A program made the position numbers and the translations under genes. The notes under the pieces were generated by a model. That model was given only the letters and a program-made list of their open reading frames with translations. It searched no databases and was not told where the DNA came from. From Gammaproteobacteria bacterium (GTDB taxonomy: Bacteria; Pseudomonadota; Gammaproteobacteria; UBA4575), in assembly GCA_965221955.1 (NCBI GenBank), contig CBDCTA010000029.1, forward strand, positions 576,001 to 640,000: DNA of 64,000 nucleotides, in the 5' to 3' direction. Below, piece after piece: positions 33,665 through 34,785 of this stretch (its first letter is position 1; every line of letters starts with the position of its first letter).

Positions 33665-33694
33665 AATGACTGCTTACTACCCAAAGCGGACATT
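33665..33694. repeat. 30-nt 11-8-11 palindromic repeat R1
   Basis: AATGACTGCTT ACTACCCA AAGCGGACATT. Confidence 0.75.
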
Positions 33695-33709
33695 AATAAT
33701 ATTTTAATA

Positions 33710-34159
33710 ATGACTGTTGAACCACTAGTTAACCATAAGGATGTGATACCAACACTTGTTAAGTGGTACGAGTCGGAATGGGAATCTTATTATGGGGTTG
33801 ATGGGCCAGGAGATGCGCAAACAGATCTTATCTCACGATGCAATGACACAATGCCTATTGGTTTAATAGCAATAGAAAATGGAGGTGTTCTTGGAACTGT
33901 TGCAATAGATAAAGATGTAACTACAAACCTTACGCCATCTATAGTTGGGTTAATGGTAGCACCAGAGTATCGACGTCGAGGCATTGCTACTTCATTGATA
34001 AATACAGCTGAAAAATGGGCAAGCCAGTTTGGTTTTCGCAAGCTCTATATTAGTACATCAACATTAAGCAATTTATTCCAAAAATTAGGTTGGTCTCAAA
34101 TCGATGAGGTAGAGTTTCTTAATGCGGAACAAGGTTCTGTCTATATGAGAGAATTGTAA
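33710..34159 (+). CDS. GNAT family N-acetyltransferase
   Basis: LMVAPEYRRRGIATSLI acetyl-CoA motif, LFQKLGW. Confidence 0.88.
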   Translation: MTVEPLVNHKDVIPTLVKWYESEWESYYGVDGPGDAQTDLISRCNDTMPIGLIAIENGGVLGTVAIDKDVTTNLTPSIVGLMVAPEYRRRGIATSLINTAEKWASQFGFRKLYISTSTLSNLFQKLGWSQIDEVEFLNAEQGSVYMREL

Positions 34160-34174
34160 AATAGGCTTAAGTCG

Positions 34175-34204
34175 AATGGGCGCTTTTGGCCGAAAGCAGA
34201 CATA
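34175..34204. repeat. 30-nt 11-8-11 palindromic repeat R2
   Basis: AATGGGCGCTT TTGGCCGA AAGCAGACATA. Confidence 0.8.
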
Positions 34205-34236
34205 ATTTACTTACAGTAATCTTGTAAATTCATGAT

Positions 34237-34752
34237 ATGAAAAAAAGGTATCTCTACTCATTATTATTTGGAGTGCCTGGCTTTTTTGTTTCACTATTAA
34301 TTGCTTTTGTGATCTTTGGTATTGCAGCTGGGTTTCTTTGGCTTTATGTTTTTGGTGACGACCCTTGGCCTTCATCGACCGAAAAAATTTTACCTATTCT
34401 GTTTATTCTATCCTTCTTGGGGCTGTGGAGTGCTTCAATTATTGTAGGGTTTGTGATCGGGAAAAACTTAGAAGAAGAATCGGAGTTAAACAAGCAACAT
34501 ATTATGGTGTCAGTCGGTGTCACCATTATACCCATTGTATTAATGATCCTTTATCAGTGGCGTGTAGGAAATATCGGGCCAAAATCAGATAGCGTCTTAT
34601 GTAGTGAATATTGCAGAGATAAAGGATATTCTGGAAGTGGAATGCCTGCGCTAAATTCAGGTGAGAAAAGTTGTAGTTGTTTCGATAGTCATGGTAAAGA
34701 AGTCATTAAAACTCCTATGGAAGAGGTCGTTATTGAACGATCTGTAAATTAA
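34237..34752 (+). CDS. Hypothetical membrane protein with Cys-rich C-terminal domain
   Basis: 3 TM helices, then CSEYC...SCSCF. Confidence 0.75.
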   Translation: MKKRYLYSLLFGVPGFFVSLLIAFVIFGIAAGFLWLYVFGDDPWPSSTEKILPILFILSFLGLWSASIIVGFVIGKNLEEESELNKQHIMVSVGVTIIPIVLMILYQWRVGNIGPKSDSVLCSEYCRDKGYSGSGMPALNSGEKSCSCFDSHGKEVIKTPMEEVVIERSVN

Positions 34753-34755
34753 CTG

Positions 34756-34785
34756 AACGTCCGTATTTGGTCGAAAGCGGGCATT
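34756..34785. repeat. 30-nt 11-8-11 palindromic repeat R3
   Basis: AACGTCCGTAT TTGGTCGA AAGCGGGCATT; last base overlaps anmK stop codon. Confidence 0.8.

What the first reader, a model, noticed from the sequence alone, without database searches (positions are those of the whole stretch)
33665..34785. Gene-cassette-like array delimited by 30-nt 11-8-11 palindromic sites (not attC, dif or CRISPR)
Seen: three same-orientation, exactly 30-nt imperfect palindromes, each preceded by G. R1 33665 AATGACTGCTT-ACTACCCA-AAGCGGACATT; R2 34175 AATGGGCGCTT-TTGGCCGA-AAGCAGACATA; R3 34756 AACGTCCGTAT-TTGGTCGA-AAGCGGGCATT. Each interval holds one tightly fitted, co-oriented accessory gene. The GNAT starts 15 nt after R1 and stops 15 nt before R2; the membrane protein stops 3 nt before R3. 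R3 abuts the anmK stop. Known: two ~11-13 bp inverted arms around a 6-8 bp asymmetric spacer is the layout of tyrosine-recombinase sites (loxP 13-8-13, dif 11-6-11), and GNATs are common integron cargo. These repeats lack the attC RYYYAAC/GTTRRRY cores and the XerD arm TTATGTTAAAT. Inference: a gene-capture system of single-gene modules stacked by a recombinase encoded elsewhere (none is in this window).
Basis: partly seen in the sequence, partly recalled or inferred. Interest (0 to 1): 0.85.

Follow-up and report, generated by a model that had tools for sequence, protein, structure and literature searches.

The report
Palindrome-bounded gene cassettes, recombinase unknown
The three short palindromes belong to a very widespread family of DNA sites that fence single accessory genes into swappable cassettes in bacterial chromosomes, plasmids and prophages, with no known cassette-moving enzyme in sight.

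Summary
R1, R2 and R3 are 30-nt 11-8-11 palindromes exactly where stated. They belong to a family of 150 copies in this 2.69-Mb genome, against 1-6 expected by chance.

The family has two spacer classes, A (ACGACCCA) and B (TTGGCCGA). The usual unit is A-gene-B. Neighbouring units are joined by a 103-113-nt B-linker-A module that carries a sigma-70-like promoter.

Two pairs of strain-variant contigs in the assembly have 99% identical flanks but different cassettes between their outermost palindromes. The globin-to-anmK gap that holds the window's two cassettes varies from 343 to 4565 nt across the genus. Neither cassette gene was found there in relatives.

The same site recurs in Alpha- and Betaproteobacteria, Xanthomonadales, 347 enterobacterial plasmids and a cargo hotspot of E. 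coli P2-like prophages. In that hotspot, one strain lacks an exact 899-nt site-to-site unit and keeps a hybrid site whose crossover lies in the spacer.

The sites are not attC, dif, CRISPR or RAYT-type REPs. Nine recombinase or transposase families were tested and none tracks the sites. I read the sites as cassette-boundary recombination sites with an unidentified enzyme (0.45). The main rival is promoter/stem-loop modules shuffled by general recombination (0.33).

The parts
33125..33550 (+). Left core flank: bacterial-like globin gene (141 aa). It is conserved next to erpA and the lpxD-like gene in the genus.
   Evidence: Pfam Bac_globin 5.7e-18. DNA matches at 68-80% identity in same-genus genomes.
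33541..33586 (+). H2: a 46-nt multi-copy repeat at the array edge.
   Evidence: Many 87-96% identical copies in same-genus genomes whose coding DNA is only about 70-76% identical (query 2141-2186).
33578..33591 (+). Partial A-class site (spacer plus AAAG, no right arm), split off by the H element.
   Evidence: The same arrangement (partial palindrome | H | full palindrome) is seen at six other array starts and on the outer flanks of H pairs.
33592..33664 (-). H boundary element: two short hairpins, a conserved CTCATATTCGC-like core and an inner end TCAGATT. It includes a promoter-like -35 TTCAGA and -10 TAGAAT reading into R1.
   Evidence: 38 copies in the genome. They cap arrays as inverted pairs. 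The fold shows both hairpins.
33665..33694 (+). R1: A-class site (spacer ACTACCCA). The first three bases complete the -10 hexamer.
33710..34159 (+). Cassette 1 cargo: GNAT acetyltransferase, 149 aa.
   Evidence: Pfam Acetyltransf_1 5.9e-15. In 40 relatives only one 36%-identical match. There is a 32% paralogue in another cassette of this genome.
34175..34204 (+). R2: B-class site (spacer TTGGCCGA), decayed arms, no linker-A module after it.
34237..34752 (+). Cassette 2 cargo: 171-aa predicted membrane protein, flanked by two B-class sites.
   Evidence: ORF. No match in 40 of 40 relatives at E<=1e-8.
34756..34785 (+). R3: decayed B-class site (spacer TTGGTCGA) abutting the anmK stop. No right-hand H element here.
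   Evidence: In relative G005 the same position holds a B site followed by H, then anmK.
34785..35897 (-). Right core flank: anmK.
Evidence: ORF. Matches at 66-74% identity in same-genus genomes.

Best explanation
R1-R3 are members (two of them decayed) of a multi-phylum family of 28-30-bp 11-8-11 core sites. The arms are AATGTCCGCT(T/A) and (A/T)AGCGGACATT, and the 8-bp asymmetric spacer comes in classes. The sites mark the ends of exchangeable single-gene cassettes.

The normal unit is promoter-A-gene-B. Units are chained through B-linker-A modules, and arrays sit in hotspots between core genes, here between the globin gene and anmK.

Proposed mechanism: cassettes are gained and lost by a conservative exchange between two same-class sites in direct orientation, with the crossover inside the spacer. 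This releases or takes up a circle that carries one hybrid site. The window's second cassette, flanked by two B sites, fits an entry of this kind. Such a reaction is what a Cre/Xer-type recombinase performs, but the enzyme is unidentified and may belong to a family not yet recognised.

Shown: the family itself, the gene-hugging geometry, whole-cassette differences ending at the sites, and one hybrid site with its crossover in the spacer.

Inferred: that the exchange is enzyme-directed, that circles form, and the direction of any particular event.
For: Family and geometry:
- 150 sites against 1-6 by chance.
- Classes A+ 36, A- 36, B+ 34, B- 39, other 5.
- There are 75 inter-site intervals of 150-3200 nt. 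Of these, 45 are canonical A->B and 15 are flanked by same-class sites in the same orientation.
- In 43 of the 45 canonical intervals the longest ORF lies on the cassette strand. The stop-to-B distance has a median of 11 nt (37/45 within -5..+30). The A-to-start distance has a median of 30 nt.

Exchange at the sites:
- Allele pair C14/C23 has flanks 99.0-99.5% identical. The arrays are 4.1 kb against 12.5 kb, share one cassette, and every breakpoint lies in or within 3 nt of a palindrome.
- Allele pair C10/C29 has flanks 98.7-99.7% identical, and all cassettes between the outer sites differ.
- One cassette occurs at two loci with 77% identity that ends at the sites.
- The globin-to-anmK gap is 343-4565 nt in seven genus members, and the cargo is not shared.

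Hybrid site in E. coli P2-like prophages:
- One strain has P1-P2-gene-P3.
- Another has a single site made of the P1 left arm and spacer plus the P3 right arm.
- The difference is an exact 899-nt unit.

Site logic:
- Gene-proximal arms are almost invariant. Linker-proximal arms vary at positions 5, 7 and 11 without compensating changes. That pattern suggests protein recognition rather than hairpin maintenance.
- Arm sequences, and related (not identical) spacer variants, recur in Alpha-, Beta- and Gammaproteobacteria.
- As single-stranded DNA, the B-linker-A module takes a long B:A hairpin as its lowest-energy structure in 4 of 5 folds, on both strands of 2 of the 3 modules tried (z -2.8 to -3.9).
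Against: No enzyme was found.
- IntI over its cut-off is absent from G000 and from site-rich relatives. It is present in the one same-genus genome that has no sites.
- RAYT does not track the sites.
- Closed genomes G010 (68 pattern hits) and G042 (41) have only two Xer-like tyrosine recombinases. G010 also has one phage-type integrase.
- IS110 0/5, rve absent from G000, G010 and G042, DDE_Tnp_1 0/5, Transposase_31 0/5.
- A large serine recombinase occurs in only 4 of 25 genomes of the family.
- No recombinase gene lies beside the arrays examined.

Other weaknesses:
- The A and B spacers differ. A simple attP x attB scheme therefore does not explain A-gene-B units.
- The hybrid site could equally arise by slippage or short-homology recombination on the 7-nt shared spacer core.
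- Adjacent B and A sites show no pair-specific covariation.
- Laid public contigs gave no circular or deletion junction that could be told apart from other copies of the repeat.
Confidence: 0.45

Rival explanations
1. Mobile regulatory modules without a dedicated enzyme. The B-linker-A unit is a stem-loop / promoter / stem-loop cassette. It insulates and drives each accessory gene. As the only sequence shared between unrelated genes, it is also where general, short-homology or phage single-strand-annealing recombination and replication slippage shuffle, delete and import genes. This is how promoter-early stem-loops (PeSLs) work in T4-type phages and how intergenic mosaic elements work in Neisseria.
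For: - The leader of A sites is a near-consensus promoter: TTGGAA, 17 nt, then TAAAAT, whose last three bases begin the palindrome. 41 of 72 A sites carry the -35-like word. The same kind of site sits before R1.
- No recombinase tracks the sites.
- The sites occur in phage cargo hotspots and on plasmids.
- PeSLs are sigma-70 promoters plus stem-loops that border ORFans, shuffle modules and form mini-circles (PMC2839356, abstract and section 13).
Against: - Modules are only 75-79% identical overall, so the palindrome itself is the only long shared stretch.
- A plain hairpin or a homology anchor does not need arm sequences and spacer classes conserved from Alphaproteobacteria to Enterobacterales, nor the uncompensated strong-arm/weak-arm asymmetry.
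- Transcripts from the predicted -10 would start inside the A palindrome (my inference from the positions), so A would not form an RNA hairpin.
- B is not followed by a T run (flanks).
Confidence: 0.33
2. Ordinary extragenic palindromes (REP/BIME-like), or operator sites of a shared regulator, whose role is structural or regulatory only. On this view the cassette look arises because such elements accumulate between small accessory genes. Array differences would then come from replacement of whole islands through the flanking core genes.
For: - The sites are extragenic, present in both orientations, often paired, and number 150 in one genome.
- In Alphaproteobacteria many follow substrate-binding-protein genes. 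That position is the classic one for REPs, by my recall.
- One REP superfamily (CGTC-tagged) is reported to lack a dedicated transposase (PMC3733652, abstract and section 6).
- The A site overlaps the -10/+1 region, where operators typically lie.
Against: - Homology between the allele pairs stops at the palindromes, not in the core genes.
- The E. coli hybrid site is a site-to-site event.
- The site-gene-site regularity and strand bias (43 of 45) are not a general REP property.
- Stems of 10-11 bp and loops of 8 nt differ from the 8-9-bp stems and 4-5-nt loops described for CGTC REPs (PMC3733652, section 6). I could not see that paper's Figure 2 or its supplements.
Confidence: 0.12
3. Divergent integron attC sites: clusters of attC lacking an integrase (CALINs), served in trans by an IntI.
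For: - The composite has the attC layout. Two inverted-repeat simple sites flank a variable centre. The outer arms are better conserved than the inner ones. The whole folds into a long hairpin.
- The cargo is small, diverse and mostly unannotated: 34 Pfam families in all were matched among 39 ORFs, GNAT (the commonest) by only 3 of them.
Against: - IntI is absent from G000 and from closed site-rich relatives. Within the genus it occurs only in the genome without sites.
- Most carriers found are Alphaproteobacteria. By my recall of the IntegronFinder survey, that class lacks integrons.
- The conserved AAC/GTT triplets are missing from B sites and from the alphaproteobacterial sites.
- Arms are 11 bp with an 8-bp spacer.
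- Cassettes carry their own promoter.
Confidence: 0.03

Closest known systems
Integron gene cassettes and attC sites (including CALINs)
   Same: Arrays of tightly packed, co-oriented, mostly single-gene units of diverse accessory function. The junction element is built of two inverted-repeat simple sites with conserved outer arms. It can fold into one long hairpin. Arrays occur without an adjacent integrase.
   Different: No IntI. The sequence of the site, not just its structure, is conserved across classes. Geometry is 11-8-11. The conserved AAC/GTT triplets are missing from B-class and alphaproteobacterial sites. Each cassette has its own promoter. Sites lie at both ends of the gene. Arrays are scattered over at least 20 loci per genome and capped by a second repeat (H).
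pdif (XerC-XerD) modules of Acinetobacter plasmids (recalled, not read here)
   Same: Discrete gene modules bounded by short recombinase-type core sites of 11-bp arms. The enzyme is encoded elsewhere in the cell.
   Different: The arms bear no likeness to this genome's own canonical dif. The spacer is 8 nt, not 6. Both arms are the same half-site, which points to a single protein rather than a XerC/XerD pair.
Promoter-early stem-loops (PeSLs) of T4-type phages (PMC2839356)
   Same: Intergenic modules made of a sigma-70 promoter plus stem-loops, some overlapping the -10. They flank ORFan genes in hyperplastic regions. Insertions, deletions and replacements end at them.
   Different: PeSLs belong to one phage group and are shuffled by phage recombination. 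The present sites are one conserved sequence shared by chromosomes, plasmids and phages of several classes, with asymmetric spacer classes.
REP/BIME/REPIN elements and CGTC-tagged REPs such as Neisseria dRS3 (PMC3733652)
   Same: Abundant extragenic palindromes, often in pairs that can fold together. Some families have no known transposase, and some are clustered.
   Different: No RAYT. Stem and loop sizes differ from the described CGTC families. The strict site-gene-site arrangement with strand bias, and the site-to-site cassette differences, are not REP features.

Membership tests
Integron (attC / IntI) | An IntI-type integrase in the genome or beside the array | tested here: not met
   TIGR02249 scores over its cut-off in 6 of 41 genomes: G013, G015, G025, G035, G039, G040. 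Of these only G015 carries the palindrome. G000 scores 83 bits on XerD against a cut-off of 265 (site counts).
Integron (attC / IntI) | Conserved RYYYAAC ... GTTRRRY outer boxes with AAC/GTT triplets | tested here: not met
   B-class sites and the alphaproteobacterial sites hold no AAC or GTT at the outer arms. No attC model was available to run.
Integron (attC / IntI) | Site folds as one imperfect hairpin pairing the two simple sites | tested here: inconclusive
   A long B:A hairpin is the minimum-energy fold in 4 of 5 folds, on both strands of 2 of 3 modules. There is no pair-specific covariation between adjacent B and A: 21.4 observed against 21.6 shuffled.
Xer site (dif / pdif / cer-like) | Arms resembling the XerC and XerD half-sites of the host's dif | tested here: not met
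   A canonical dif lies at G000:C4:59834. The palindrome arms do not resemble it.
Xer site (dif / pdif / cer-like) | XerC and XerD present | tested here: met
   XerD scores 402 bits and XerC 367 bits on the NCBIfam equivalogs. This is uninformative, because all relatives have them.
REP / REPIN | A cognate RAYT (Y1 transposase) in the genome | tested here: not met
   PF01797 is absent from G000 and from closed site-rich G010, G014 and G019. It is absent from 5 of 5 other carriers.
REP / REPIN | Extragenic, abundant, paired palindromes | tested here: met
   150 sites and 25 B-linker-A pairs.
CGTC-tagged REPs (dRS3-like) | Unpaired CGTC/TGTC tag, 8-9-bp stem starting with AT, 4-5-nt loop, CCA tail | tested here: not met
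   Here the stem is 10-11 bp and includes TGTC, and the loop is 8 nt. The comparison is with PMC3733652 section 6. That paper's consensus figure and supplements were not visible to me.
PeSL-type mobile regulatory cassette | Sigma-70 promoter joined to a stem-loop, upstream of accessory ORFs, at the borders of indels | tested here: met
   Promoter logo. Indel borders. Promoter activity itself was not tested.
PeSL-type mobile regulatory cassette | Shuffling by general or phage homologous recombination | not testable with these tools
   This needs junction surveys or genetics.
MITE (transposase-mobilised) | Target-site duplications flanking the B-linker-A unit | tested here: not met
   1 of 5 composites inspected has matching flanks (flanks printed, inspected by eye).
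CRISPR | Regular repeat-spacer period and cas genes | tested here: not met
   Spacing is 238-2521 nt and holds ORFs. cas genes were not searched.

The most novel reading that the evidence does not exclude
A third, integron-independent and Xer-independent gene-cassette system of Proteobacteria. It would have its own conserved 28-bp core site (two 10-11-bp arms and class-specific 8-bp spacers) and be served by a recombinase family that has not been recognised. It would operate alike in chromosomes, megaplasmids, P2-like prophage cargo hotspots and filamentous phages.
Probability: 0.3. Interest if true: 0.9.

Novelty: new variant of a known kind. Interest (0 to 1): 0.72.

Why it matters
If these sites are true recombination sites, they define a gene-capture system as widespread as integrons, and one that reaches Alphaproteobacteria. 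By my recall, integrons are not found in that class. The system also reaches phage hotspots known to hold anti-phage genes (PMC9122126, passages).

The sites give a simple sequence handle, one 28-bp pattern, for finding accessory-gene cassettes and their boundaries in any genome or metagenome. They also make the search for the responsible enzyme a well-posed problem.

If there is no dedicated enzyme, the result still matters. One conserved promoter/palindrome module would then serve as a common docking sequence that lets unrelated genes move between distant bacteria and their phages.

Tried and rejected
- Rfam gave no match on the sites in the window region at E<=1, nor in four other site-rich loci at E<=0.5.
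- Literature searches by site sequence and by concept found no description of this palindrome. Br-REP1 and Br-REP2 of Bradyrhizobium are different sequences (PMC5082802, passages). Nilsson et al. 2004, on site-specific recombination in P2-like coliphages, is not held. It may already describe the prophage sites. I know only its title, from reference lists.
- XerD as the partner. One array lies beside xerD-dsbC. In G019, however, the nearest listed site is about 48 kb from xerD, and the arrays examined in G022 and at the C5 locus of G000 have other core genes as neighbours. I rejected this as coincidence.
- The large serine recombinase at C26:~86.4 kb lies about 3.5 kb from two sites. It is present in only 4 of 25 genomes of the family, so I rejected it.
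- No multi-copy transposase-like ORF was found in G000. The 3-copy families are desaturases and binding proteins.
- I clustered ORFs around 117 loci from other taxa and 38 viral contigs. No recurrent recombinase emerged. The commonest family was ABC_sub_bind.
- Public runs. Only Logan contigs were available. The 'skips' and the one 'goes back' joint rest on sides of about 30 nt, which are the palindromes themselves. They cannot be told from other copies of the B-linker-A module, so they give no verdict on circles or deletions.
- The idea that H is a CsrA-type RNA was dropped. Its GGA-loop hairpins lie upstream of the predicted promoter.
- Structure prediction, complex prediction and the large protein searches were not used, because no candidate protein emerged.
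Full report
**The observation**

R1 is 33665-33694, R2 is 34175-34204 and R3 is 34756-34785. Each is 30 nt with 11-nt arms and an 8-nt centre. The repeat finder reports them as one three-copy family with spacings of 510 and 581 nt. The GNAT ORF (33710-34159) and the 171-aa membrane-protein ORF (34237-34752) fit between them as described, and R3 touches the anmK stop.

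The sites are far beyond chance. Allowing three mismatches per arm to AATGTCCGCTT / AAGCGGACATT, the 2.69-Mb genome has 150 sites on 18 of its 29 contigs. Five Markov genomes of the same size gave 1-6. The window has only these three. R2 and R3 are decayed copies and do not fold better than shuffles.

**Anatomy of the family in this genome**

The centre falls into two classes:
- A is ACGACCCA. There are 36 copies in each orientation.
- B is TTGGCCGA. There are 34 and 39 copies.
- Five sites are unclassed.

There are 75 intervals of 150-3200 nt between neighbouring sites. Of these, 45 run A to B, 15 are flanked by same-class sites in the same orientation, and the remaining 15 have the reverse order or mixed orientation.

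In 43 of the 45 A-to-B intervals the longest ORF lies on the A-to-B strand. The ORF stops a median of 11 nt before B (37/45 within -5 to +30 nt). It starts a median of 30 nt after A.

Neighbouring units are joined by a B-linker-A module. There are 25 such modules, with start-to-start distances mostly of 73 or 83 nt. Their mean pairwise identity is 0.75-0.79.

Upstream of A sites the linker carries TTGGAA, a 17-nt spacer, and TAAAAT. The last three bases of that hexamer are the first three of the palindrome. The promoter scan finds the same kind of site before R1.

The two arms of a site are not equivalent. The arm next to the gene is nearly invariant. The arm next to the linker varies at positions 5, 7 and 11, and the partner base does not change to compensate.

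The cargo is diverse. It includes three GNATs, peptidases, HSP20, a globin, OsmC, a Na/H exchanger, HAD and Rieske proteins. Each of the 34 Pfam families matched among the 39 ORFs was hit by only one to three of them.

**Array edges**

Arrays are capped by a second repeat, H, with 38 copies. H has two short hairpins whose stems covary by eye, and a conserved core. It lies in inverted orientation at the two ends of an array. Each H sits inside a split palindrome.

In the window, H occupies about 33592-33664, directly left of R1. It is preceded by a partial A site and by a 46-nt repeat, H2. H2 is 87-96% identical across genus members whose genes are only about 70-76% identical. There is no H right of R3. 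An 'empty' H-site-H element lies just before the window, at G000:C29:575433-575615.

**Evidence that the sites are where genes are exchanged**

1. The assembly holds strain-variant contigs. C14 and C23 share flanks at 99.0-99.5% identity (lptFG on one side, an RDD gene, xerD and dsbC on the other). Their arrays are 4.1 kb and 12.5 kb and have one cassette in common. Every break of homology lies in or within 3 nt of a palindrome.
2. C10 and C29:123.7-138.7 kb share flanks at 98.7-99.7% identity. Everything between the outermost sites differs, 1.39 kb against 4.0 kb.
3. One cassette occurs at two loci with 77% identity that ends at the sites.
4. The erpA / lpxD-like / globin block and anmK are conserved in the genus. 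The gap between them is 343, 609, 1293 (here), 1680, 2298, 3848 or 4565 nt. G011 has no site there. G005 has an ORF, a B site and an H before anmK.
5. The membrane protein was found in 0 of 40 relatives. The GNAT matched only at 36% identity in one relative.
6. In E. coli P2-like prophages the cargo spot between the tail-fibre assembly and tail-sheath genes is bounded by the same kind of site.
   - Strain CU568-3 has P1, P2, a DUF6650 gene and P3.
   - Strain 98208 has one site made of P1's left arm and spacer and P3's right arm.
   - The alignments overlap only inside that site, so an exact 899-nt site-to-site unit is present in one and absent in the other. The crossover lies in the shared spacer core.

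**Distribution**

The degenerate pattern occurs in several groups:
- 13 of 14 other same-genus genomes.
- 18 of 24 other genomes of the family.
- 1 of 16 genomes from other families of the class. The reversed control pattern gave zero hits.

Most are Alphaproteobacteria (Pseudolabrys and relatives). Others are Lysobacter, Pseudoxanthomonas, Dyella, Luteimonas, Sphingomonas, Agrobacterium vitis, Phytobacter and scattered MAGs of other phyla.

A closed alphaproteobacterial chromosome has 41 sites clustered in arrays with the same site-gene-site layout. A closed relative, G022, has one six-cassette array between scpB and a pseudouridine synthase gene.

A composite occurs in 347 enterobacterial plasmid records and in 104 of 5426 E. 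coli genomes. The Duffyella megaplasmid shows gene after gene fenced by sites.

Ten related filamentous-phage contigs (Zot, Rep_trans) carry a B site with an A-like half-site starting 44 nt after it.

**What it is not**

- attC/IntI. IntI over its cut-off occurs in 6 of 41 genomes, and only one of those carries the sites. The one same-genus genome without sites has an IntI. The AAC/GTT triplets are missing from B sites and from alphaproteobacterial sites.
- dif. A canonical dif lies on contig C4 and is unlike the arms.
- RAYT-type REPs.
- Other enzyme families that do not track the sites:
  - further tyrosine recombinases;
  - IS110;
  - serine recombinases;
  - rve;
  - DDE_Tnp_1;
  - Transposase_31.
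- Rfam has nothing on the sites.
- The B-linker-A unit lacks target-site duplications. Only 1 of 5 inspected has matching flanks.

**How it most likely works**

The geometry is that of a simple tyrosine-recombinase core site bound by one protein species. It has two identical 10-11-bp half-sites around an 8-bp asymmetric centre, with centre classes that would keep A from recombining with B.

Several facts fit a conservative exchange between two same-class sites:
- the strong-arm/weak-arm pattern;
- the conservation of arm sequence, and of related though not identical spacer variants, across bacterial classes;
- the 15 cassettes flanked by same-class direct sites, including the window's second cassette;
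- the hybrid site with its crossover in the spacer.

I put this reading at 0.45. Its weak point is plain. No enzyme was found, even in closed genomes with dozens of sites.

The main rival, at 0.33, is that the module is a promoter/stem-loop regulatory cassette of the PeSL kind (PMC2839356, abstract and section 13). It would be shuffled by general, short-homology or phage annealing recombination. This explains the promoter, the missing enzyme and the phage hotspots. It does not explain the cross-class sequence conservation or the uncompensated arm asymmetry.

A purely structural or regulatory REP-like role (0.12) does not explain site-to-site differences. Divergent attC (0.03) fails its defining tests.

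**Novelty and caveats**

Eight literature searches found no description of this palindrome (one search failed on syntax).

The closest printed concept for transposase-less palindromes is the CGTC-tagged REP superfamily. Its described stems and loops are shorter (PMC3733652, abstract, sections 6 and 8, passages). That paper's consensus figure and supplements were not visible to me.

Nilsson et al. 2004, on P2-like phages, is not held. It may already treat the prophage sites. I know only its title.

Noticed in passing
window 33541-33586: H2, a 46-nt repeat left of the H element. It is 87-96% identical in many copies across same-genus genomes whose coding DNA is only about 70-76% identical. It holds three GGA words. 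Function unknown.
   Followed up: partly
G000:C29:575433-575615 (just before window base 1): An 'empty' element: two H repeats in inverted orientation around a single decayed palindrome, 183 nt in all. It may be the bare platform into which cassettes go.
   Followed up: partly
G000 contigs C14/C23, C10/C29, C3/C19, C6/C24, C8/C18, C11/C26, C12/C13, C1/C25: The assembly contains pairs of contigs 94-99.8% identical over kilobases. These are strain variants assembled side by side, in line with the 4.3% contamination figure. Two pairs differ only in their cassette arrays.
   Followed up: yes
relative G013 (same genus), C20:40615-41559: The only same-genus genome without the palindromes has a full integron integrase (387 bits). 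The two systems may be alternatives.
   Followed up: no
L159 and nine related viral contigs (site at L159:2938-2965): A filamentous prophage (Zot-like ATPase, Rep_trans initiator) carries a B-type site with an A-like half-site starting 44 nt after it. Unannotated ORFs lie beside them. The pair could be its attachment or origin region.
   Followed up: partly
L190, L192, L193, L194 (E. coli P2-like prophages): Cargo between the tail-fibre assembly and sheath genes differs between strains: DUF6650, a restriction endonuclease, or hypothetical proteins. It is bounded by degenerate copies of the site. In strain 98208 a 194-aa tyrosine-type recombinase gene lies next to the spot.
   Followed up: partly
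L148 (alphaproteobacterial chromosome G042), e.g. 1785-1833 and 10640-11007: Four matches over threshold to the Rfam chrB-b motif lie between the cassettes but not on the palindromes. This is a second repeat family in the same arrays.
   Followed up: no
window 32070-33550: An lpxD-like hexapeptide acyltransferase (349 aa) and a bacterial-like globin sit between erpA and the variable spot. They are conserved there across the genus.
   Followed up: partly
window about 14455 (G000:C29:590455): A weak dif-like match with 5 mismatches. The real dif is on contig C4, so this is probably chance.
   Followed up: no
G000:C22:1-1926 and G000:C29:662144-663592: Long tandem repeats with periods of about 339 nt and about 294 nt, seen in the self-alignment of the assembly.
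   Followed up: no
G000:C26:86441-86899: A 544-aa large serine recombinase gene lies about 3.5 kb from an isolated A...B cassette. It is present in only four genomes of the family.
   Followed up: yes
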